From the NCBI GenBank assembly GCA_026710875.1, contig JAPOQE010000113.1, positions 3,144 through 67,143 of the forward strand: a stretch of DNA of 64,000 bases. Direction: 5' to 3'. Numbering within the stretch: the stretch's first letter is position 1; each line of letters begins with the position of its first letter. Positions 50,459 through 61,063 of the stretch are shown one piece after another. Origin of the DNA: Gammaproteobacteria bacterium. GTDB lineage: Bacteria; Pseudomonadota; Gammaproteobacteria; UBA4575. The translations under genes were made by a program, and so were the position numbers. The notes beneath the pieces were generated by a model. That model was not told the origin of the DNA. It saw only the letters and a program-made list of their open reading frames with translations, and made no database searches.

Positions 50459-51667
50459 ATGTTAGCCCGCGAAGCATTTGAGTTAGTCAATACACGTTTG
50501 ATGCACTTTGATAGCGTGGCGCTCATTGGCCCACGGCAAGTAGGGAAGACAACGCTCGCGCGGCAGATTGCTGGCGAGTGGAGCAGTGGTGCAAAATATC
50601 TGGATCTCGAGAATCCTGCAGACCGTCGTCTGCTGGACGACCCAGCAGCCTACCTCTCAACCTATGCCAGTCAGCTGATCGTTCTGGATGAGATCCACCG
50701 CGCGCCCGAGATATTTCAGGTTCTCAGGGGGCAAATCGACGAACGTCGCCGTATGCCAGGAGAGACCGGTAGGTTCCTGATTCTGGGATCAGCATCCATA
50801 GACCTGTTACGTCAGTCGTCAGAAAACCTGGCGGGTCGGATAAGCTATGTTGAATTGGCGCCGTTTACGACACGAGAGGTTTCGCGCCAAAGCTCACCCT
50901 CCGAGGACAGTTCGGCAAATGGACTTGACCGCCTCTGGGTGCAGGGCGGCTTTCCTCCAAGTTATCTCCGCGACGATGAAAGTGTGAGTTTGCGCTGGCG
51001 CACTGATTTCATTCAGACGTATTTAGAGCGGGATCTTCCGCAATTCGGTTTGCAAGTTTCCACTGATCGCATGGATCTGTTCTGGCGCATGATTTCCAAC
51101 GATCAAGGCGAATTATTCAATGCACAGCGTTATGCACGATCCTTGGGAGTGAGCGGACATACCGTTAGCCATTATCTTGATGTTCTCCACAAATTGCTCA
51201 TGCTTCGTGTGTTGCGACCTTGGTATGCCAACACAGGCAAGCGTCTCGTCAAGTCACCGCGGCCATATGTACGTGATAGCGGTATCCTGCACGCACTTCT
51301 GGGTCTGCGCACCATGGACGATCTCCTGTCTCACCCGGTAGCCGGAAAGAGTTGGGAGGGCTTTGTCATCGAAAATCTCATTAGTTCCACCACAGGGCGA
51401 GCAAACCCTTACTTTTATCGCACAGGTGCAGGTGCCGAGATTGATCTAGTTCTCGAGTTTGCGCCAGGCAAATGCTGGGCAATCGAAATCAAGCTGTCAA
51501 GCGCACCCACTGTCGACCGAGGTTTTTACAACGCAACAGATGATATCGGTGCAGAACGGCGGATTTTGGTTCACAAGGGAAAGGACTTGTTCCCCATGCG
51601 TCATGGCGTTGAGGCAATGCCGTTGCATGAAGCCATGAATGAAGTCAGTGCAGCGTTAAACGAATGA
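50459..51667 (+). CDS. AAA family ATPase (AAA_14 + DUF4143)
   Basis: Walker A GPRQVGKTT. DUF4143 C-terminal region. AT-rich flanks on both sides. Confidence 0.8.
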   Translation: MLAREAFELVNTRLMHFDSVALIGPRQVGKTTLARQIAGEWSSGAKYLDLENPADRRLLDDPAAYLSTYASQLIVLDEIHRAPEIFQVLRGQIDERRRMPGETGRFLILGSASIDLLRQSSENLAGRISYVELAPFTTREVSRQSSPSEDSSANGLDRLWVQGGFPPSYLRDDESVSLRWRTDFIQTYLERDLPQFGLQVSTDRMDLFWRMISNDQGELFNAQRYARSLGVSGHTVSHYLDVLHKLLMLRVLRPWYANTGKRLVKSPRPYVRDSGILHALLGLRTMDDLLSHPVAGKSWEGFVIENLISSTTGRANPYFYRTGAGAEIDLVLEFAPGKCWAIEIKLSSAPTVDRGFYNATDDIGAERRILVHKGKDLFPMRHGVEAMPLHEAMNEVSAALNE

Positions 51668-51920: not shown

Positions 51921-52250
51921 ATGAAATCCAAACTGCGTATTACAGCCCTGATCGTAGCAAGCCTTCTTGCCCTGTCCTCCTGTGAAACCATCGAGTTGAC
52001 GCATGAGGGGGAAAAGGCACGTGTCCTTAGCCCTGATGACGTGAAAAACTGCCAGAAGAACGGTGCAGCGACAGTCAGTATCAGCGAGGAATACCTGGGT
52101 CTTGTACCGAAACGGGCATCAACGATTGCCAACCAGCTGCAACGCCTGGCGCGCAACAGCGCGATTCACATGGGTGGTGACACAGTCGTGCCCATGTCAA
52201 AAATGGACCGCGGGCAACAGACGTTTGCCGTCTTTCGCTGTATCCCCTGA
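51921..52250 (+). CDS. small lipoprotein (lipobox LLALSSC), DUF4156-like
   Basis: Signal peptide plus lipobox. 109 aa. Convergent with the DUF2063 gene. Confidence 0.55.
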   Translation: MKSKLRITALIVASLLALSSCETIELTHEGEKARVLSPDDVKNCQKNGAATVSISEEYLGLVPKRASTIANQLQRLARNSAIHMGGDTVVPMSKMDRGQQTFAVFRCIP

Positions 52251-52365: not shown

Positions 52366-53217
52366 TCAGGATCCGGTCTTGAGACCGCAGAAGAATTCTT
52401 GGGCAGTCCATTGCTGAAACCATTCGCCCAGATTCGTCGTAATCTTGTCCATATCGACACCCTCTTGCAGGGCACAGTTCTCCAAGGCTTCCCCTAGGCT
52501 CTTGCCTTCCTTGAGCTGCGCCAGCAGGAGATAGCTTTCATATTCCAGGTCATCGCGCCATACCCGGTAATTGCAGCGATACACCACTACAAAGGACTTC
52601 TGGGCTTTTGGGGCGTCCATATGCCTGTCTTCATTCACCGCAGTCATGTAGGCATTGACCGGGTAATCCAGCTCCAGCAGATACAGGGCCGGATTAAACT
52701 CAAGACAAATTTCGGGCCATTGCTCACCCGGGACATTTTGTATCGCCTCCGTAGAAATCTTTTCCTTGTGCGGTGCATCGAAGACATCCTCCATCAGACG
52801 TTCGACGGTAGCCACCGCAACTACAAAAGGCTGGTGCGGAATCTCGTCGGCCTCGTTGCGCAGGTACTGCGGGAATTTGACACTCAGGCGGTTCAGGTTG
52901 TAGTACGTGGAGGGATGGCGTGTGATGTAGTCACGGACCACCTGTGCGAAACGCTCGACTCCCAACAGGTGCTCCACTGTCGGATACTCCTCTGACATGA
53001 TGTCTATAAATCGCCAGAAATACATGTCGGCGTACACCGAGATGCGCTCCAACGGTGTCAGTTTTTCAGAAGGAAGTACGGTTTGTTCAAGATCGTATGC
53101 GGCTTCGCTTCCAGGCTTGGAATTCGCCTCGACTCCAGCCTCGGCACCCTGCGGGTGACTGATAACCGAATACATCCACTGTTCGAGGCTTTCCAGCCCC
53201 GAATCATCACGAGGCAT
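52366..53217 (-). CDS. DUF2063 (MbnC/BufC-like, putative DNA-binding-domain) protein
   Basis: 283 aa overlapping the DUF692 gene by 11 nt. Typical DUF2063 partner of DUF692 enzymes (LERISVYADMYFWRFIDIMSEEYP...). Confidence 0.8.
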   Translation of the reverse strand: MPRDDSGLESLEQWMYSVISHPQGAEAGVEANSKPGSEAAYDLEQTVLPSEKLTPLERISVYADMYFWRFIDIMSEEYPTVEHLLGVERFAQVVRDYITRHPSTYYNLNRLSVKFPQYLRNEADEIPHQPFVVAVATVERLMEDVFDAPHKEKISTEAIQNVPGEQWPEICLEFNPALYLLELDYPVNAYMTAVNEDRHMDAPKAQKSFVVVYRCNYRVWRDDLEYESYLLLAQLKEGKSLGEALENCALQEGVDMDKITTNLGEWFQQWTAQEFFCGLKTGS

Positions 53218-54058
53218 GACGTAACTCGGTCATGTCGCGGAATTTTGCCGCCTTCATGACCTCGGCATGGACCTCATCGAACGACGGAATATTAGCATCC
53301 CACTCAAGCAGCGTTGCACGGTTTCCTGCACGGCGGTGTACCTCGGCATAGAGGTCCCATACAGGGTCAATAACCCGACCGTCATGCGTATCAATGCAAT
53401 GTGTACCCCTGTCTGTATGTCCGGCCAAATGAATCTGCACCACCCGGTCGTAAGGCATCGCCTCCAGATAGGCCTGGGCATCCAGCCCGTGATTGCGACA
53501 CGTGACGTAGACGTTGTTGACATCCAGCAGCAAGCCGCAGTCGGATTCCTCGGCCATGCGGGCCAGGAATTCCTCCTCGGCCATGGTGGAGTTTGCAAAG
53601 GTCAGGTAAGTCGATGGGTTTTCCAGTATCAGCGGACGCTCCATGAAATCCTGAACGGTACGGATCCGATCTACCAGGAACTTCAGGCTCTCTTCATTAT
53701 ATGGCAAGGGGTAGAGGTCGTGACCGTTTCGTCCATGTACCCCGGTCCAGCAGACATGGTCTCCCAGCCAGTGAGCATTCACCCGTTTGGCCAGGGTTTT
53801 CAGTTTTGACAGGTAGTCAAAGTCAATGGGGTCCGTACTGCCAATCGACATGGACACCCCATGCATGACAATCGGATAGCGCTCGGCAATCTGGTCCAGC
53901 ACACGTACGGGATTCCCATCAGTCTCCATGAAGTTCTCGGACATGATCTCGAACCAGTCGATTTGCGGCCACTGTTCAAGAATGTGGTTGAAATGGACTG
54001 TACGCAGCCCGATTCCGAGTCCAAGGTCAGGAAAGCCCCAGCGGTTTTCTACAGACAT
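53207..54058 (-). CDS. DUF692 (MbnB/TglH/BufB-like) TIM-barrel non-haem iron enzyme
   Basis: GLGIGLR N-terminal motif and xylose-isomerase-like TIM barrel (WFEIMSENFM...HLAGHTDRGTHCIDTHD) characteristic of DUF692/UPF0276. Confidence 0.85.
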   Translation of the reverse strand: MSVENRWGFPDLGLGIGLRTVHFNHILEQWPQIDWFEIMSENFMETDGNPVRVLDQIAERYPIVMHGVSMSIGSTDPIDFDYLSKLKTLAKRVNAHWLGDHVCWTGVHGRNGHDLYPLPYNEESLKFLVDRIRTVQDFMERPLILENPSTYLTFANSTMAEEEFLARMAEESDCGLLLDVNNVYVTCRNHGLDAQAYLEAMPYDRVVQIHLAGHTDRGTHCIDTHDGRVIDPVWDLYAEVHRRAGNRATLLEWDANIPSFDEVHAEVMKAAKFRDMTELRHAS

Positions 54059-54218
54059 AGAAACTACCTAGTGAATGAGAGTTGTCTGGTAAACATGGTA
54101 CCAGTATAGAAAGTATTCAAGCAATCGACGAGGGCATGCTGAATCCAGCAGCCCTGTCGATGCTCAAATCGTTTTAGGTTAAGTCAGAACTTTACAACGA
54201 ACGTGTATTAAGTACTGC

Positions 54219-54596
54219 TTATCCTTCCATGTGGCTGGGGTCTACCGGTAGTTGGCAACCGCCCTTGCCTTTACATGAGTTCTTGCCGGCACAGCCGTGA
54301 TCACCTGACTTGCAGCCACCCTGGCATTTACAGGCATTCTGGCCCTTACAGGCATGCTTTTCATACGTGTGGGCTGGGTCACAACCACCTTTACCCTTGC
54401 ATGAGTTCTTGCCGGCGCAACCGTGGTCACTCGATTTACAACCACCTTTGCCTTTACATTCATTCTGACCTTTGCAGCTATGCTTAGGGCAACCTGCATC
54501 TGGGTCACCAGCCAAGGCAACCGTCTGGCTTCCTGCCACCATTCCAGCTGCTGCAGCTACCATCAGTTTATTAAAATCACGACGCTTCATGTCCAT
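54219..54596 (-). CDS. secreted (Tat-type RRDF signal) 14-Cys repeat peptide; candidate RiPP metallophore precursor
   Basis: MDMKRRDFNKLMVAAAAGMVAGSQTVALA signal (AxA cleavage), then two approximately 40-aa repeats: C-x-KGQN-x-CKG-KGG-CKS-x-DHGCAGKNSCKGKGGC. GGAGG SD 9 nt upstream. Immediately 5' of the DUF692-DUF2063 pair. Confidence 0.7.
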   Translation of the reverse strand: MDMKRRDFNKLMVAAAAGMVAGSQTVALAGDPDAGCPKHSCKGQNECKGKGGCKSSDHGCAGKNSCKGKGGCDPAHTYEKHACKGQNACKCQGGCKSGDHGCAGKNSCKGKGGCQLPVDPSHMEG

Positions 54597-54627: not shown

Positions 54628-54690
54628 TCTTGCGGTGCAAGGTGCAATTTCTGTCTACAGAAACGATTTATTGAACCTAGGGATTATACA
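54628..54690 (-). promoter_or_regulatory. candidate promoter (-10 TATAAT) and palindromic operators upstream of the Cys-rich peptide gene
   Basis: On the minus strand: TATAAT, then the perfect 16-bp palindrome TTTCTGTAGACAGAAA and a second IR CTTGCACCGCAAG, located between the promoter and the RBS. Confidence 0.4.
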
Positions 54691-54899
54691 GAATTGAAAC
54701 AAGAGGTGGCGAAAAATACCTGATATGAGCTATCTATAGTTGGATTTGAAATACCAATCTCTTGAATCTAACTAAACCTCAGTTTGGTCCTATATCGTCA
54801 TTCAGGCTGAGTAACCCCAGGTTGTAATCAGAGTTCCTTGCTAGATAATGAAGTTCACATTCAGTAAAGGATATGAAATTTCCCAGTTCATAGTCTTTC

Positions 54900-56726
54900 T
54901 CAGTAGCAGAGATCAATTACAATCTCTGTAGGGTATTCACGATGCTTGTCTGTGATTGAATCTACAATTCCAAGATCAAGAATTAGCGCGCCTGCATAGA
55001 ATTTTCCTTGTAGCCTGCTTGCAACAGCCTCCTGATACTCATTCCCATCTTGGTCCTCACATTCAATATTGAGCACATCATCCGAGCGTCTGATCATTGC
55101 TGTTCCAGGCACATCAACATGCCAAAGCCCTCGTTTATTCGAGACAGTGCAAACTGCCCCTTTCCCTTTACATCCTGGCGCCTTGAATTTGATTTGCTGG
55201 TGGGCATCGTTCATGACTGTAGCGCAGCCAGTTATTACCACCATGCAAAAGGCAGCAGTGGTTGTTGATGTACCATGAAGTGGATCTAAATTAGCATCCC
55301 CTCGAGTTTGTATAGGACCACCACTGTAATGATTACGCTCCTTGAACTGCACACCCACGTGACCATCGATGTTTAGGAATGGGGCCAGAAAGCCCATATA
55401 CCCTACACCCAGTGTGGCACGATGACGGTAGATCACCTCAGTTTGTGAGGCCTGCAGATACTCAAGTACAGACTGTCCAAGATTAACAATACCAGGCTCA
55501 TCACCATTCGCACCACCTATTGGAATGGCATTACAGGTTGTAGCCGATGAACAGACATAGGGGAGACCCTTAATTTGATCAGCATCGCGGTCTGTAGGAT
55601 CATCCGCATAACCATATCCACCACGGAAGCGCCAGTTGCCCATCTTCATCTCGGCACCGATGCTGTAGACCATCTGGTCTTCATACACATCGCCCCAGAA
55701 GTCGGCCTCTTCCCAGTTCTTCCACATGATGTCTGCGGCTATCAGCAAGTTCCCATCCATAAATGTTTCATTGGATATACCAATTCCAATAGTACGTGGC
55801 TCCTCAATAGGGATAGATGCATAGCGTACCTTTCCGGTGTCCCCATATCCGTCAAATACAACATCGTTATCCACCTCAAATGCAGGCACCGCAACAATGT
55901 CGTCAAACACATGCTGCAGTTCCGTCATATAGAACAAGCCCAACCGAGTACCCGGCACAATATCCTCATAGGTCAAGCCAATCGTGCCACGCATCCCCGT
56001 GTCATGGGTTACGCCAGAAGTGGCTGCAAGTCCCAAGTCCAGGTAGGCGTACGTTACAGTAGCGGCACCACCTATGGATACCTGTTCATTCAGCTCCCAG
56101 CCAAGTGCGAAGTTCGCACCCAGTACAATGAATTCTGCACCGAGTCCCAGAGTCTCCTCTACATGGCGGAATTCCACGCCAATCCCTGACACAGCTGTCA
56201 GGCCAGCACCGAGTACAGCTGGCAAACCCAGTGGTCTCAGATCCTGAGTGACACCCACCTGGGGCACAATGTAGCCTTCGTTTCCATTGACTGCATCATC
56301 AAATGTGGCATTGCTGATACAGAAGCCAGCCCCACATCCTGCTAATGTACCTGGTCCTAAGGCTGTACCACCATGTCTAGGATTCGGCGCATTCGGAGCA
56401 TATATATCAAGAACTTCTTGAGGGACAGCACCTGCATATGTGGGAAGCGCAAGAGCACCCGAGTGATCCAGGCGCACTTCAGGCTTGTAGTAGGTGGCAC
56501 CAAACGTGAATTCAGTACCCGTCCAGTCCGTTAATGCTGCAGGGTTACCAAAGATCGCGGACACATTATCCAGAGGCTTGGCGATACTCGTACCCGCCAT
56601 ACCTGCTGAACGTGGCGCCAGCACGTTGTGCAGGTCGTAGCCATACGGACCCGCATAGGCAGTTCCCGATATCGCAAGCGAGGCCAACAGCCCCATTGCT
56701 AACCACCGATTAAAAACTTTCCTCAT
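54900..56726 (-). CDS. FadL/TodX (Toluene_X) family outer-membrane transporter with a C-proximal Cys-rich insert
   Basis: Signal peptide (AISGTAYA). FadL-type N-terminal hatch motif (SAGMAGTSIAKPLDNVSAIFGNPAAL). Terminal aromatic (..IDLCY). 608 aa versus about 430 for typical FadL. 6 Cys cluster near the C-terminus, including the KAPGCKGKGAVC element. Confidence 0.75.
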   Translation of the reverse strand: MRKVFNRWLAMGLLASLAISGTAYAGPYGYDLHNVLAPRSAGMAGTSIAKPLDNVSAIFGNPAALTDWTGTEFTFGATYYKPEVRLDHSGALALPTYAGAVPQEVLDIYAPNAPNPRHGGTALGPGTLAGCGAGFCISNATFDDAVNGNEGYIVPQVGVTQDLRPLGLPAVLGAGLTAVSGIGVEFRHVEETLGLGAEFIVLGANFALGWELNEQVSIGGAATVTYAYLDLGLAATSGVTHDTGMRGTIGLTYEDIVPGTRLGLFYMTELQHVFDDIVAVPAFEVDNDVVFDGYGDTGKVRYASIPIEEPRTIGIGISNETFMDGNLLIAADIMWKNWEEADFWGDVYEDQMVYSIGAEMKMGNWRFRGGYGYADDPTDRDADQIKGLPYVCSSATTCNAIPIGGANGDEPGIVNLGQSVLEYLQASQTEVIYRHRATLGVGYMGFLAPFLNIDGHVGVQFKERNHYSGGPIQTRGDANLDPLHGTSTTTAAFCMVVITGCATVMNDAHQQIKFKAPGCKGKGAVCTVSNKRGLWHVDVPGTAMIRRSDDVLNIECEDQDGNEYQEAVASRLQGKFYAGALILDLGIVDSITDKHREYPTEIVIDLCY

Positions 56727-58141: not shown

Positions 58142-58924
58142 CTAGTAGTCTGACACTTCTACCGAACTAAGTCGCTTGTTTTTTATGTCCTCCCGCGTAG
58201 GAAGCAGGTCATAGGCGATAATATTCTGCCCGGAATAGCTCTTGTGTGCACGAATACGGTCCAGCCAGGCCTTGATATTGGGGCGCTGGTCAACGACTGC
58301 GCCTTCCCCAGCCTCGCATAGAAGATGAATATAGGCCGTCCAGTGGATATCTGCGAATGAGTAACTGCCGATGATAAATTCGTTGTTCGCGAGCTGCTCA
58401 TCGAGGGCATCCAGGGCCGCTTCCAGCCCTTCACGGGCACGATCCACTGCCGTATGGTCCGGATCCTTGCCCAGAATCGGTGCGTAGACCCGCTGCTTCA
58501 CGATTTCCTCAACATGGAGGCCAACCTCACTGCAGGCCACATCGGACCAGTAGTTTTGAGCTGCCAGCAGTGCCGCATTTTGCGGCGGCAGGCGCCGGCC
58601 AAGGCCCCGCGCCTCGATATAGCTCATGATGCCCTGCTCTCCAGCCACGATGTAATCGGCTTCCTTCAAGGCGGGTATAGTGCCATAGGGCGAGACCTCA
58701 AGATAAGCACTCGAGTGCTGTTCGTTCACCGAGATATCCAGAATCCCGCAATCGGTTTCCATGCCCATTTCCACTGCAGTGATCAGGCACTTCAGGGTGC
58801 CGGCATCTCCAGGTGAGCCCAGCAACTGCAACACGTACTGGGTTTTCTTCATGTCACCAGTGGCCCCGTACCCGCTACTCGCGTCAGGGTCTGCAGCTCG
58901 GCCAAATTCAAACAGATCACTCAT
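58142..58924 (-). CDS. GST-like protein, paralogue 1 (Cys-type N-domain, FADIHW C-domain motif)
   Basis: Thioredoxin-like N-domain with a conserved Cys (TLKCLITAVEMG) and C-terminal GST helical domain. One of three paralogues sharing (S/A)F(S/A)(F/Y)AD(I/V)HW. Confidence 0.7.
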   Translation of the reverse strand: MSDLFEFGRAADPDASSGYGATGDMKKTQYVLQLLGSPGDAGTLKCLITAVEMGMETDCGILDISVNEQHSSAYLEVSPYGTIPALKEADYIVAGEQGIMSYIEARGLGRRLPPQNAALLAAQNYWSDVACSEVGLHVEEIVKQRVYAPILGKDPDHTAVDRAREGLEAALDALDEQLANNEFIIGSYSFADIHWTAYIHLLCEAGEGAVVDQRPNIKAWLDRIRAHKSYSGQNIIAYDLLPTREDIKNKRLSSVEVSDY

Positions 58925-58993: not shown

Positions 58994-59695
58994 TCAGGCC
59001 ACATTCCTGAATTCCCTGCCCTGGATCTCAGATGCTGACGACAAGGCCTCATAGGGAGATCCGTGCCCACCTTTGCGGGATTTCATACGCTCGAACCAGG
59101 ATTTCAGATTTGCTCGGGAATCAATCAGGCTGTCCCGGCCACAGACATGACAAAGATGCAGGTAGGCAATCCAGTGAATGTCTGCATAGGAAAATGCCCC
59201 GACGATATACTCCTTGTCGGACAAGGTAGCATTCATACCATCGAAGATCTTCTGCAGGTCCTCTTCGGCCGCAGCCGTTCCCTGCCCGCCGGTGTCGGCG
59301 CCCGGATTGAACACGGCATCCTGCAACAAGACATTGATCTGCGGCATGACCCGGAACTGTCCAATCTCGATCCAGTAGTTCTGTTGCCCCAGGTGTGCAG
59401 CCTTGCGAGGTGTAAGGGGCTGTCCGCCACCGCGAACGCCCAGATAGGGTAGAACCGCTGCAATTCCGGAGGTTACAAAATCGCCATTGATCAGGCACGG
59501 GAGCTTGCCGAAGGGAGACAGGGACTTGAGGGTTGCATCAGGATACTGATCATCCAGGATATCAACCAGCTCGACTTTCAGTTTGACGCCTTTTTCAGCA
59601 GCAAGGTACAGGCATTTACAGGTATCGGCATGCCCGGGGTGGCCGAGCAGTCGAAGTTCTTCGCCAGATTTCTTTTTTCGTCCGAACAGTCCCAT
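58994..59695 (-). CDS. GST-like protein, paralogue 2
   Basis: CKCLYLAAEKG N-domain Cys. FSYADIHWIAYLHL motif. 69-nt spacing to paralogue 1. Confidence 0.7.
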   Translation of the reverse strand: MGLFGRKKKSGEELRLLGHPGHADTCKCLYLAAEKGVKLKVELVDILDDQYPDATLKSLSPFGKLPCLINGDFVTSGIAAVLPYLGVRGGGQPLTPRKAAHLGQQNYWIEIGQFRVMPQINVLLQDAVFNPGADTGGQGTAAAEEDLQKIFDGMNATLSDKEYIVGAFSYADIHWIAYLHLCHVCGRDSLIDSRANLKSWFERMKSRKGGHGSPYEALSSASEIQGREFRNVA

Positions 59696-60379: not shown

Positions 60380-61063
60380 TTAGACATTGATCTGCACATC
60401 ACGCAGGCTGTTGCCACTGATGTCTGTTTTAGTCGGAAGCACATCGTAGGCCCTGATGTTCTCTTTGCTGGTGCTAGGATGCGACTTGACCAGTCCCCAC
60501 CATTTCGCAACGGCCGGACGTGATTCCACAATATCACTGCTGTCAGCCAGCATGCACCCTTGTGCCATGGCCGCCCAGTGGACATCAGCAAAGCTGAATC
60601 CTCCGCAGATGAAATCTCCACGCAACGCCGGATTGGACTTCGATGCCAAGTGCGAGTTCAGGAGATCAAAGCAAGCCGAAGCTGCTGCTGCATCGCCCCC
60701 GCCAGCCATGATTCCCGAGACCGCAGGCATCGCATTATTGGTTGCCAGTTGGTTCCACTGATACATGATGGCACGTACAACACCATTACGTGGACTCAAG
60801 GATGGGCCAAAGCCTTTGTCGTTCAGATAGGACATGATGCCCTCCTGGCCGCAGACCACAAAATCCACGTCTTTCAGTGCCGGCAGCAAGCCGTGCGGTG
60901 CAAGCGCCTGAACTTCAGCTGAGCCCGCTCCGCCGTTGGGATCAACATAATGTGAGTCGAGATCCACACCTTTTTCGGCAGCGGTGAACAGGCACATCGC
61001 ACTGCGCAGGCAAGAGGGGTTCCCATAAAATTTCATTTTGTCCTGCAAATGATCACCTAACAT
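60380..61063 (-). CDS. GST-like protein, paralogue 3
   Basis: CLFTAAEKG N-domain Cys. FSFADVHWAAMAQG motif. Confidence 0.7.
   Translation of the reverse strand: MLGDHLQDKMKFYGNPSCLRSAMCLFTAAEKGVDLDSHYVDPNGGAGSAEVQALAPHGLLPALKDVDFVVCGQEGIMSYLNDKGFGPSLSPRNGVVRAIMYQWNQLATNNAMPAVSGIMAGGGDAAAASACFDLLNSHLASKSNPALRGDFICGGFSFADVHWAAMAQGCMLADSSDIVESRPAVAKWWGLVKSHPSTSKENIRAYDVLPTKTDISGNSLRDVQINV

What the first reader, a model, noticed from the sequence alone, without database searches (positions are those of the whole stretch)
54219..54596. Unusual precursor architecture: twin-arginine signal and two tandem 7-Cys modules with His-Gly-Cys cores
The mature region is about 90 aa, Lys/Gly-rich, with 14 Cys arranged as two near-identical repeats (CxKGQNxCKGKGGCKSxDHGCAGKNSCKGKGGC). 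The repeats look like the modular cores of multi-site RiPP precursors. The RRDFNKL motif suggests Tat export, which would be odd for a peptide supposedly modified in the cytoplasm then exported unfolded, so either the RR is incidental (Sec) or export of a folded or modified metallopeptide is intended. The abundance of Cys, His and Lys strongly suggests soft-metal (Cu/Zn) binding.
Basis: seen in the sequence. Interest (0 to 1): 0.75.

Follow-up and report, generated by a model that had tools for sequence, protein, structure and literature searches.

The report
Twelve-cysteine bufferin copper-binding peptide precursor
This small cysteine-rich gene is a new member of the already described "bufferin" family of enzyme-modified, copper-chelating periplasmic peptides, and its only unusual aspect is a conserved twin-arginine export signal, whereas the literature read here describes the family as Sec-exported.

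Summary
The ORF is real: 54219..54596, minus strand, 125 aa, 14 Cys, two 34-aa modules that are 85% identical. It is intact and under purifying selection in three related gammaproteobacterial MAGs. It is the precursor (bufA) of a Buf2 / BUF_6/12Cys bufferin, also called the "Cys-Lys" captophorin group. It matches NCBIfam BufA2 at E 1.5e-13 but scores below the curated cut-off. It is followed directly by an MNIO maturase (BufB, above cut-off) and a DUF2063 partner (BufC). That gene order recurs in 65-71 of 80 related loci. The 12-Cys duplicated form is already published.

Twelve Cys are invariant. The two extra Cys are specific to this small clade, and the "His-Gly-Cys" cores are not conserved, so "7-Cys modules with HGC cores" is not the defining architecture. 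Module number varies across homologues (1x, 2x, 3x).

RRxFxK occurs in about 64% of 261 homologues. Their N-termini hit Tat-signal models, while those of non-RR relatives hit none. The bufferin papers I read never mention Tat.

Verdict: a new member of a known kind with a plausibly under-described export route. Interest is low to moderate.

The parts
54219..54596 (-). bufA: 125-aa precursor of a 12-Cys Buf2-type bufferin (14 Cys in this clade)
   Evidence: ORF. NCBIfam NF050166 BufA2 at E 1.5e-13, 50.7 bits, below the 60-bit cut-off. Alignment with 12 invariant Cys. Intact and under purifying selection in L001-L003.
54510..54596 (-). Signal peptide, residues 1-29: n-region MDMKRRDFNK, Gly/Ala-rich h-region LMVAAAAGMVAGSQTV, and an A-L-A | G cleavage site. 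The cleavage site is read from the sequence and was not predicted with a tool.
   Evidence: Sequence. The h-region core AGxxAG is conserved in both RR and non-RR relatives. AF2 models residues 5-28 as a helix with pLDDT about 80.
54567..54587 (-). Twin-arginine motif K-R-R-D-F-N-K (residues 4-10). It matches the Tat consensus S/T-R-R-x-F-L-K except for N in place of L.
   Evidence: RR and F are at least 90% conserved. 168 of 261 homologues carry RRx[hydrophobic]. RR-class N-termini hit TIGR01409, TIGR02811 and TIGR04401, and non-RR N-termini hit no Tat model. The window's own N-terminus gives only TIGR02811 at E 0.05-0.065.
54381..54482 (-). 6-Cys module 1 (residues 39-72): HSCKGQNECKGKGGCKSSDHGCAGKNSCKGKGGC, made of two CxGxNxCKGxGGC units
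   Evidence: C41, C47, C53, C60, C66, C72 and N45, N64 are invariant.
54255..54356 (-). 6-Cys module 2 (residues 81-114): HACKGQNACKCQGGCKSGDHGCAGKNSCKGKGGC. The extra C91 is clade-specific.
   Evidence: C83, C89, C95, C102, C108, C114 and N87, N106 are invariant.
53207..54058 (-). bufB: MNIO (DUF692) maturase with no signal peptide, so cytoplasmic
   Evidence: NF050167 MNIO_BufB at 358.8 bits, above the 310 cut-off. PF05114 at 358 bits. Present directly downstream of bufA in 71 of 80 related loci.
52366..53217 (-). bufC: DUF2063 plus NGO1945_C/RRE-type partner protein. It overlaps bufB by 11 nt.
   Evidence: PF09836 at 62.6 bits (cut-off 27.2). PF22106 weak. NF050145 HvfC at 61 bits, below the 142 cut-off. 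Present in 65 of 80 loci.
54115..54169 (-). Strong stem-loop in the 160-nt bufA-bufB spacer. It is a candidate attenuator or transcript-stabilising element that would raise the precursor-to-enzyme ratio (inferred).
   Evidence: RNA fold of the spacer: -53.9 kcal/mol, z = -4.68, 0 of 200 shuffles fold as well. The sequence is conserved in L001-L003. It has no canonical U-tract and was not called by the terminator scan.
54683..54712 (-). Sigma-70-like promoter candidate (TCGCCA-18-TATAAT), about 87 nt upstream of the bufA start
   Evidence: 10 of 12 matches; the number of such sites in the region is not above the shuffle expectation. The -10 region is conserved in L001 and L002.
54648..54663 (.). 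Perfect palindrome TTTCTGT-CT-ACAGAAA between the -10-like element and the Shine-Dalgarno. It is a candidate operator or 5'-UTR hairpin.
   Evidence: Unique in the window, with 0.15 expected by chance at up to 2 mismatches. Conserved with 1 change in L001 and L002. Function not tested.

Best explanation
The ORF is bufA of a three-gene bufABC cluster. This cluster makes a Buf2-type bufferin (BUF_6/12Cys family, the 'Cys-Lys' captophorins) of the duplicated 12-Cys form.

Shown here: the gene is real and conserved, it carries a signal peptide and two 6-Cys modules, and it is followed by the MNIO maturase BufB and its DUF2063/RRE partner BufC.

Inferred from characterised family members: in the cytoplasm, BufB and BufC use O2 and iron to oxidise four Cys per module to 5-thiooxazoles (-4 Da each, so up to eight here). 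The first and last Cys of each module remain thiols and form a disulfide after export. The signal peptide is cleaved after A-L-A (residue 29). The roughly 96-aa Lys/Gly-rich product stays in the periplasm, where the thiooxazole N/S donors chelate excess copper.

Inferred from sequence conservation: export of this protein and of its RR-class relatives goes through the Tat pathway rather than Sec (my estimate is about 0.6). Tat would give the maturase time to finish in the cytoplasm and can pass a modified, rigidified or folded substrate. The two clade-specific extra Cys (C36, C91) may form an extra disulfide or add ligands; this is speculative.
For: Family assignment:
- BufA2 model NF050166 hits at E 1.5e-13 in two stretches. 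BufB model NF050167 scores 358.8 bits against a 310 cut-off. PF05114 and PF09836 are both above their cut-offs.
- The bufA-bufB-bufC order is conserved in 65-71 of 80 loci from Gammaproteobacteria, Acidobacteriota and Planctomycetota.
- 12 Cys, 4 Asn and 2 His are invariant or nearly so.
- The published description of Buf2 fits: six or 12 conserved Cys, a duplicated domain, a signal peptide, no bufD, four central Cys carrying -4.03 Da, a CysI-CysVI disulfide, and induction by Cu.
- BufA2 is placed in the 'Cys-Lys' group of captophorins. There are eight Cys-Lys dipeptides here.

Real gene: synonymous changes outnumber non-synonymous ones (8:1 and 21:12) and the ORF is intact in L001-L003.

Tat:
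- RRxF is present in 112 of 121 close homologues and 168 of 261 overall.
- RR is invariant in A3, and F is at least 90% conserved.
- RR is encoded by 15 different codon pairs.
- Of 46 RR-class N-termini, 11 hit TIGR01409 and 13 hit TIGR02811. Others hit the models of other Tat substrates, including the Cys-rich copper storage protein Csp1. Of 28 non-RR N-termini, none hit a Tat model.
- A basic residue in the c-region occurs in 63% of the RR class against 26% of the non-RR class.
- BufB and BufC have no signal peptides, so modification must precede export.
Against: - The precursor scores below the curated BufA2 cut-off (50.7 against 60 bits). So did all 10 relatives tested, so this clade lies outside the strict equivalog.
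- The span from CysI to CysVI is 31 residues here, against 26 in C. vibrioides BufA2. Which Cys are modified is therefore extrapolated.
- No modification, metal binding or regulation was or could be tested.
- AF2 gave no confident fold for the mature part (pLDDT below 50).
- For Tat specifically: the window's own N-terminus gives only a weak Tat-model hit (E 0.05-0.065). The residue after F is polar (N, G, T or S) rather than the consensus Leu. The window's c-region has no basic residue. No tat genes lie in the window.
- The published work calls bufferin signals Sec-type, and Sec export was shown for BufA1.
- Signal class follows the BufB phylogeny (6 changes against 22 in shuffles). The motif could therefore co-evolve with the maturase or partner rather than with the export route.
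Confidence: 0.8

Rival explanations
1. It is the same Buf2 bufferin but is exported by Sec, as published for the family. On this reading the conserved RRxFxK plus AGxxAG segment is not an export determinant. It would be a leader-like recognition element for BufC's RRE domain or for BufB, or simply a lineage-specific n-region.
For: Both bufferin papers describe Sec signal peptides, and BufA1's signal drives Sec-type export of beta-lactamase. The h-region core (AAVAGxxxG) is conserved in both RR and non-RR relatives, which is unusual for a pure export signal and suggests a second role. Signal class is clade-specific on the BufB tree. The position after F is polar rather than Leu. The window's own N-terminus does not reach TIGR01409 or PF10518.
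Against: A BufC-specific leader would not be expected to match generic Tat-signal HMMs built from unrelated Tat substrates, yet RR-class N-termini do and non-RR ones never do. In Sec n-regions K and R are interchangeable, but RR is invariant across 46 diverse sequences and is encoded by many codon pairs. The signal peptide was dispensable for modification of BufA1. The two roles are not mutually exclusive.
Confidence: 0.3
2. It is an unmodified, secreted metallothionein-like Cys/Lys/Gly-rich protein that binds metal through plain thiolates and His. On this reading the adjacent MNIO and DUF2063 genes act on something else.
For: 14 Cys and 6 His in 96 residues could bind soft metals without modification. 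A sizeable share of Buf1/Buf2 precursor genes are reported to lie away from MNIO genes.
Against: bufB and bufC follow the precursor gene directly in 65-71 of 80 loci across phyla. BufB passes the bufferin-maturase equivalog cut-off. In C. vibrioides Buf2, four Cys are modified, and metal binding in the family requires the heterocycles.
Confidence: 0.04
3. It is a multi-core precursor. On this reading the two modules are separate cores, each cut out by a protease and released as a small peptide of about 34 aa.
For: There are two near-identical modules separated by a 9-residue linker (DPAHTYEK). Module number varies among homologues (1x to 3x).
Against: No protease or dedicated exporter gene lies in or next to the cluster here or in related loci. 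Characterised bufferins are the whole signal-less protein. The published AF2 model of a 12-Cys Buf2 is a two-domain protein. The linker carries no conserved cleavage motif.
Confidence: 0.04

Closest known systems
Buf2 / BUF_6/12Cys bufferins (C. vibrioides BufA2B2C2; the 12-Cys form exemplified by Cognaticolwellia aestuarii WP_077285100), PMC11626156 and PMC12452194. Same as the 'Cys-Lys' captophorins of bioRxiv 10.1101/2025.11.18.689057.
   Same: Small signal-peptide-bearing precursor with 6 or 12 conserved Cys. Many Cys-Lys dipeptides. bufA-bufB(MNIO)-bufC(DUF2063/RRE) gene order with no bufD and no sigma/anti-sigma genes. The duplicated two-domain form is already described.
   Different: It scores below the curated BufA2 model cut-off. 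The CysI-CysVI span is 31 residues against 26. Two extra clade-specific Cys are present. The signal has a conserved twin-arginine motif, whereas the papers speak only of Sec (and lipoprotein) signals. Neither 'Tat' nor 'twin-arginine' occurs in their main text, and 'Tat' does not occur in the held supplements of PMC12452194.
Buf1 bufferins (DUF2282, C. vibrioides BufA1; gig operon of Cupriavidus metallidurans)
   Same: Same enzyme pair, the same thiooxazole chemistry, and the same role as a periplasmic copper chelator.
   Different: Buf1 has four Cys and a DUF2282 fold. Its clusters usually carry a DoxX gene (bufD) and SigF/NrsF regulation. There is no DUF2282 match here.
Oxazolin/HvfA, fontiphorin and bulbicupramide (EGKCG 'Lys-Cys' repeat captophorins)
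   Same: Repetitive Cys-containing units modified by an MNIO/DUF2063 pair, with variable repeat number and copper binding.
   Different: The repeat is the 5-mer EGKCG, not the 13-mer CxGxNxCKGxGGC. The window's BufB scores 258.7 bits against the 360 cut-off of the HvfB model.
Csp1 (TIGR04401 'TAT_Cys_rich', four-helix-bundle copper storage protein) and CueO. These are Tat-exported copper proteins. That CueO is a Tat substrate with an MQRRDFLK n-region is from my own knowledge.
   Same: Cys-rich or copper-handling periplasmic proteins that carry RR signals. Four RR-class bufferin N-termini hit the Csp1 model's signal region.
   Different: These are unmodified folded proteins with no RiPP chemistry. 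The resemblance is limited to the signal peptide and the metal.
Methanobactin (MbnA/MbnB/MbnC)
   Same: An MNIO with a partner protein acting on Cys of a ribosomal peptide to make a copper chelator.
   Different: Methanobactin has a leader peptide rather than a signal peptide, oxazolone-thioamide chemistry, and is secreted as a small chalkophore. The MbnB model scores 52 bits against a 325 cut-off.

Membership tests
Buf2 / BUF_6/12Cys bufferin precursor | Six or twelve conserved Cys in a small protein | tested here: met
   12 Cys are invariant in a 33-sequence alignment. There are two 6-Cys modules. The definition comes from PMC11626156 and PMC12452194.
Buf2 / BUF_6/12Cys bufferin precursor | Gene directly precedes an MNIO gene and a DUF2063/RRE partner gene (order bufABC), without bufD/DoxX | tested here: met
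   The order is conserved in 65-71 of 80 loci. The next gene after bufC is a convergent DUF4156 lipoprotein gene.
Buf2 / BUF_6/12Cys bufferin precursor | N-terminal signal peptide in place of a classical RiPP leader | tested here: met
   n-, h- and c-regions and an AxA-type cleavage site are visible in the sequence. The type of signal (Sec or Tat) is a separate question. No dedicated signal-peptide predictor was available.
Buf2 / BUF_6/12Cys bufferin precursor | Score at or above the curated cut-off of NCBIfam NF050166 (BufA2 equivalog) | tested here: not met
   50.7 bits against a 60-bit cut-off, E 1.5e-13. 10 of 10 relatives are also below it, at 34-58 bits. The model is narrower than the literature family, and relatives are named 'hypothetical protein'.
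Buf2 / BUF_6/12Cys bufferin precursor | Central Cys converted to 5-thiooxazoles, outer Cys forming a disulfide, and Cu binding | not testable with these tools
   Needs MS, UV, NMR and metal titration. Extrapolated from C. vibrioides Buf2.
MNIO bufferin maturase (BufB) | Score at or above the cut-off of NF050167 and a PF05114 domain | tested here: met
   358.8 bits against a 310 cut-off. PF05114 at 358 bits. The E-W-D motif is invariant in 67 BufB sequences.
Tat (twin-arginine) substrates | S/T-R-R-x-F-L-K consensus in the n-region, followed by a weakly hydrophobic h-region | tested here: met
   K-R-R-D-F-N-K: RR, F and K match, with N in place of L. The h-region is Gly/Ala-rich; the RR-class mean best-12-residue Kyte-Doolittle hydrophobicity is 1.97. 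The motif is conserved in 168 of 261 homologues.
Tat (twin-arginine) substrates | Match to Tat-signal profile models (TIGR01409, PF10518) | tested here: inconclusive
   The window's own N-terminus hits only TIGR02811 (a Tat target region) at E 0.05-0.065 and hits no Pfam model. Of 46 RR-class relatives, 11 hit TIGR01409 (best 2.4e-4) and 13 hit TIGR02811. Of 28 non-RR relatives, none hit a Tat model.
Tat (twin-arginine) substrates | tatABC present in the genome, and export that depends on Tat and on the RR pair | not testable with these tools
   There is no TatA-like motif in the 64-kb window. The rest of the genome could not be searched. An experiment is needed.
Oxazolin / EGKCG (HvfA) family | EGKCG repeats and an HvfB-type MNIO | tested here: not met
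   There is no EGKCG motif in the sequence. HvfB model NF003818 scores 258.7 bits against a 360 cut-off.
Buf1 (DUF2282) | DUF2282 domain with four Cys | tested here: not met
   No PF10048 hit at E<=10.

The most novel reading that the evidence does not exclude
A large clade of Buf2 bufferins, including this one, may be genuine Tat substrates. They would then be the first natural RiPP class I could find described as routed through the twin-arginine pathway. They would be exported only after cytoplasmic heterocyclisation, in a rigid or folded state that might already carry metal. That would make them a vehicle that can carry copper out of the cytoplasm as well as a periplasmic buffer. Sister clades with ordinary Sec or lipoprotein signals would provide a natural comparison.
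Probability: 0.5. Interest if true: 0.6.

Novelty: new member of a known kind. Interest (0 to 1): 0.3.

Why it matters
Taken as a bufferin, the locus adds little. It is one more of more than 20,000 MNIO/DUF2063 'captophorin' clusters, in an uncultured gammaproteobacterium with a small genome. Two points are still useful.

First, the curated BufA2 model misses this whole clade, so these genes remain 'hypothetical protein' in public records. A broader model would correct many annotations.

Second, bufferins are presented as rare Sec-dependent RiPPs. If most relatives of this gene instead carry working twin-arginine signals, the timing problem has a simple answer: Tat would let a cytoplasmic iron enzyme finish eight oxidations before export. 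It would also open the question of whether the product leaves the cytoplasm already loaded with copper. Both points can be tested directly with standard genetics.

Tried and rejected
- Exact-sequence look-up of the protein in the contig index found no record.
- AlphaFold2 with a 33-sequence alignment gave mean pLDDT 54 and a core below 50. The model is unusable, so I ran no fold search.
- Scanning the window's own signal segment against Pfam and NCBIfam Tat models gave only a weak TIGR02811 hit. I therefore compared classes of homologues instead.
- I tested whether signal type switches freely relative to the maturase, using an NJ tree of 67 BufB sequences. It does not: 6 Fitch changes against about 22 in shuffles, and at least two of the six are mis-called starts. 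This test cannot separate 'export signal' from 'leader that co-evolves with BufB/BufC'.
- The FadL-like outer-membrane protein upstream might have belonged to the cluster. I rejected this: it is present only in L001-L003 and is inverted in L003.
- Rfam found nothing in the flanking untranslated regions.
- tblastn against plasmids found nothing, probably because of low-complexity masking.
- Cluster-member names were uninformative, all 'hypothetical protein'.
- I tried to locate the 'Asp in place of FonB-Phe250' marker of Cys-Lys MNIOs. I could not place it without the reference sequences.
- The supplements of the PNAS paper are not held, so I could not inspect the signal of C. vibrioides BufA2.
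Full report
**1. What is in the sequence**

The finding's coordinates are exact, but the gene is on the minus strand. The ORF 54596..54219 encodes 125 aa. A GGAGG lies 9 nt upstream of the ATG.

The product begins with MDMKRRDFNK, followed by LMVAAAAGMVAGSQTVALA and then GD. That is a positively charged n-region, a Gly/Ala-rich h-region and an A-L-A cleavage site. The remaining 96 residues contain 14 Cys, 21 Gly, 15 Lys and 6 His.

Residues 39-72 and 81-114 are two modules, identical at 29 of 34 amino acids and 78 of 102 nucleotides. Each module is itself two copies of a 13-residue unit, CxGxNxCKGxGGC.

It is the only ORF of 60 aa or more in any frame of the 64-kb window with an N-terminal RRxFxK.

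**2. It is a real, conserved gene**

A scan of one genome per species found it at 99, 90 and 94% identity in three uncultured Gammaproteobacteria. L001 is OZ243969.1, a 1.87-Mb chromosome. L002 and L003 are the other two. The ORF is intact in all three, and both extra Cys are retained.

Codon differences are 8 synonymous to 1 non-synonymous against L001 and 21 to 12 against L002. They are concentrated at third positions.

The word-indexed protein search scored 5409 homologues at E<=1e-3 among the 8000 candidates examined. The exhaustive search of 50%-identity representatives found 1380.

**3. What it is**

The NCBIfam model 'BufA2 family periplasmic bufferin-type metallophore' (NF050166) matches at E 1.5e-13 in two stretches, one per module. 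The score is 50.7 bits, below the curated 60-bit cut-off.

The next gene on the same strand (53207..54058) matches the 'MNIO family bufferin maturase' model NF050167 at 358.8 bits, above its 310-bit cut-off. It also matches PF05114. The following gene (52366..53217) overlaps it by 11 nt and carries DUF2063 plus the NGO1945 C-terminal (RRE-type) domain. Neither enzyme has a signal peptide.

In 80 related loci from Gammaproteobacteria (Steroidobacteraceae, Woeseiaceae), Acidobacteriota and Planctomycetota, a BufB homologue follows the precursor in 71 and a BufC homologue in 65. The shortfall is mostly due to contig ends. This is the bufABC organisation of bufferins.

**4. What the literature already says**

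Leprevost et al. (PMC11626156) defined bufferins as periplasmic RiPP metallophores. Their Cys are turned into 5-thiooxazoles by an MNIO together with a DUF2063 partner. The second-largest precursor family was named BUF_6/12Cys because it has 'six or 12 conserved Cys'. In C. vibrioides Buf2, CysI and CysVI stay unmodified and probably form a disulfide. The four central Cys each lose 4.03 Da. The genes are induced by Cu and not by Fe, Zn or Mn.

The follow-up survey (PMC12452194) states that 90% of Buf2 precursors have 6 Cys and the rest have 12, as a duplicated domain. It reports that the bufABC order is strictly conserved and that Buf2 clusters lack sigma/anti-sigma genes. About 16% of Buf2 precursors have lipoprotein signals, and some clusters have tandem precursor genes.

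A 2025 preprint (10.1101/2025.11.18.689057) groups these under 'captophorins', with BufA2 in the 'Cys-Lys' group. It counts more than 20,000 such clusters in RefSeq.

The two-module, 12-Cys architecture is therefore a documented form of a known family.

**5.

In a 33-sequence alignment the invariant residues are twelve Cys (41, 47, 53, 60, 66, 72, 83, 89, 95, 102, 108, 114) and four Asn. H39 is at least 90% conserved and H81 is invariant; both precede the first Cys of a module.

C36 and C91 are found only in the window and L001-L003. They sit at non-equivalent positions, so the modules are 6-Cys modules, not 7-Cys modules.

The His of 'DHGC' is usually N, A, G or K elsewhere. Even L002 and L003 have N in module 1.

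- Many relatives of about 75-90 aa have one module.
- Two modules are the most common form among the close hits.
- Three modules occur in L027, P0007 and P0166.
- Some loci carry a second precursor gene in tandem (L023, L028, L070).

**6. The twin-arginine question**

This is the one part of the finding that goes beyond the published description.

*Conservation.* Among the 120 best hits plus the query, 112 have RR followed by x and a hydrophobic residue. Where upstream residues allow scoring, RR is 61 of 61, F at +2 is 59 of 61, and K or R at +4 is 58 of 61. The flanking positions vary. Over 261 sequences, 168 have the motif, 24 of them together with a lipobox. The other 92 have ordinary variable K-rich n-regions such as MKK... 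or MNSK..., often with lipoboxes. In 39 loci the RR pair is written with 15 different codon pairs, so selection acts on the amino acids.

*Class comparison against Tat models.* I scanned 38-residue N-termini against NCBIfam. Of 46 RR-class sequences, 11 hit TIGR01409 (twin-arginine signal, best E 2.4e-4) and 13 hit TIGR02811 (formate dehydrogenase Tat target). Four hit the Tat-exported Cys-rich copper storage protein Csp1. Others hit the HmcB, NiFeSe hydrogenase small subunit and Rieske models. Of 28 non-RR sequences, none hit any Tat model; their hits were to lipoprotein and other signals.

*c-region.* A basic residue just after the h-region is a feature associated with Sec avoidance in Tat signals (this association is from my own knowledge). 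It occurs in 63% of 135 RR-class sequences against 26% of 38 non-RR sequences.

*Literature.* Neither 'Tat' nor 'twin-arginine' occurs in the main text of the two bufferin papers or the captophorin preprint, and 'Tat' does not occur in the held supplements of PMC12452194. No paper in the library combines MNIO or DUF692 with these terms. A search combining RiPP, precursor peptide and twin-arginine translocation found only an engineering discussion. That discussion speculated that Tat could prolong the contact of a precursor with its cytoplasmic enzymes (PMC5686179).

*Caveats:*
- The window's own N-terminus reaches only E 0.05-0.065 against one Tat model.
- The residue after F is polar rather than Leu.
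- The window's c-region has no basic residue.
- No tat genes lie in the window.
- No dedicated predictor was available.
- Signal class follows the BufB phylogeny closely: 6 parsimony changes against about 22 in shuffles. A role of the conserved N-terminus in recognition by BufB or BufC cannot be excluded. The h-region core AGxxAG is conserved in both classes, which itself hints at a second function.

I put Tat export at about 0.6.

**7. Most likely mechanism**

bufA is probably transcribed from a promoter within the conserved ~170 nt upstream. A -35/-10 candidate lies at 54712..54683. A conserved perfect palindrome, TTTCTGT-CT-ACAGAAA, lies at 54648..54663 between it and the ribosome-binding site.

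A very stable, conserved stem-loop at 54115..54169 in the 160-nt bufA-bufB spacer (z = -4.7) may attenuate read-through or stabilise the bufA message. Either would give more precursor than enzyme. This is inferred.

In the cytoplasm BufB and BufC would oxidise four Cys per module to thiooxazoles, up to eight in total. The exact sites are uncertain. Homology to C. vibrioides points to C47/C53/C60/C66 and their module-2 equivalents, whereas the Cys-Lys rule points to C41/C47/C53/C66.

The modified protein would then be exported, probably by Tat, and cleaved after residue 29. The outer Cys of each module would form disulfides, and the product would chelate copper in the periplasm. None of the chemistry or metal binding was testable here.

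**8. Surroundings**

The 608-aa FadL/Toluene_X-type outer-membrane protein upstream (54900..56726) is present only in the three closest genomes and is inverted in L003, so it is not part of the cluster.

The convergent DUF4156 lipoprotein gene (51921..52250) and proS are syntenic only in those genomes. An AAA-type ATPase gene (50459..51667) is present in the window and L001 but not in L002 or L003.

Rfam finds nothing around bufA.

**9. Verdict**

The interpretation as a metal-binding RiPP precursor is right. The 'unusual architecture' is the known 12-Cys Buf2 bufferin.

The gene is a new, unannotated member of a known kind. The curated BufA2 model misses this clade, since 10 of 10 tested relatives fall below its cut-off, and public names are 'hypothetical protein'.

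The conserved twin-arginine signal is a credible and apparently unreported variation in export route, and it merits a direct test. Interest is 0.3.

Noticed in passing
window 54115..54169 (-): A very stable conserved stem-loop sits in the 160-nt bufA-bufB spacer. The spacer folds at -53.9 kcal/mol, z = -4.68, and no shuffle folds as well. It has no clear U-tract. It may be an attenuator or stabiliser that sets the precursor-to-enzyme ratio.
   Followed up: partly
window 54648..54663: A perfect palindrome, TTTCTGT-CT-ACAGAAA, lies between the -10-like TATAAT and the bufA ribosome-binding site. It is unique in the window and conserved in L001 and L002. It is a candidate operator of an unidentified, possibly metal-responsive, regulator.
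   Followed up: partly
window 54900..56726 (-): A 608-aa FadL/Toluene_X-type outer-membrane protein, whose Pfam match covers only residues 41-379. The ~190-aa C-terminal region has no Pfam match. It contains several Cys, including a bufferin-like 'GCKGKG' stretch. The C-terminus differs among L001-L003 (tblastn coverage q1-492, q1-608 and q1-470).
   Followed up: partly
NCBIfam NF050166 against P0006, P0060, P0145, P0156, P0160, P0167, P0180, P0216, P0238, P0249: All ten relatives tested, from both the RR and non-RR classes and with 6 or 12 Cys, score 34-58 bits, below the 60-bit cut-off of the BufA2 equivalog. This large clade is therefore left as 'hypothetical protein' in public annotation.
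   Followed up: yes
L027 10001-10510; P0007; P0166: Three-module (18-Cys or more) versions of the same precursor exist. P0166 and about a dozen others have extra Cys-Cys pairs flanking each module (17-25 Cys) together with lipoprotein signals.
   Followed up: no
L023 ~9949 and ~10405; L028 ~9529 and ~9985; L070 ~1595 and ~3550: These loci carry two precursor genes. In L023 and L028 they lie in tandem upstream of one bufBC pair, for example a 12-Cys gene followed by a 6-Cys gene in L023. This agrees with the published note that some MNIOs may have more than one substrate.
   Followed up: no
window 50459..51667 (+): A 402-aa AAA-type ATPase gene lies between the proS and bufC sides. It is present in the window and L001 but absent at that position in L002 and L003, which suggests a recent insertion or deletion.
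   Followed up: no
window 58142..58924, 58994..59695, 60380..61063 (all -): Three consecutive paralogous ORFs of 227-260 aa share motifs such as F/YADIHW. I judged the similarity by eye and did not scan them against any family library.
   Followed up: no
alignments A3 and A4 (signal peptides of Buf2 relatives): The h-region core (A-A-V-A-G-x-x-x-G) is conserved in both RR-class and non-RR-class signal peptides across phyla. This is unusual for export signals and may mean the signal peptide doubles as a recognition element for BufB or BufC.
   Followed up: partly
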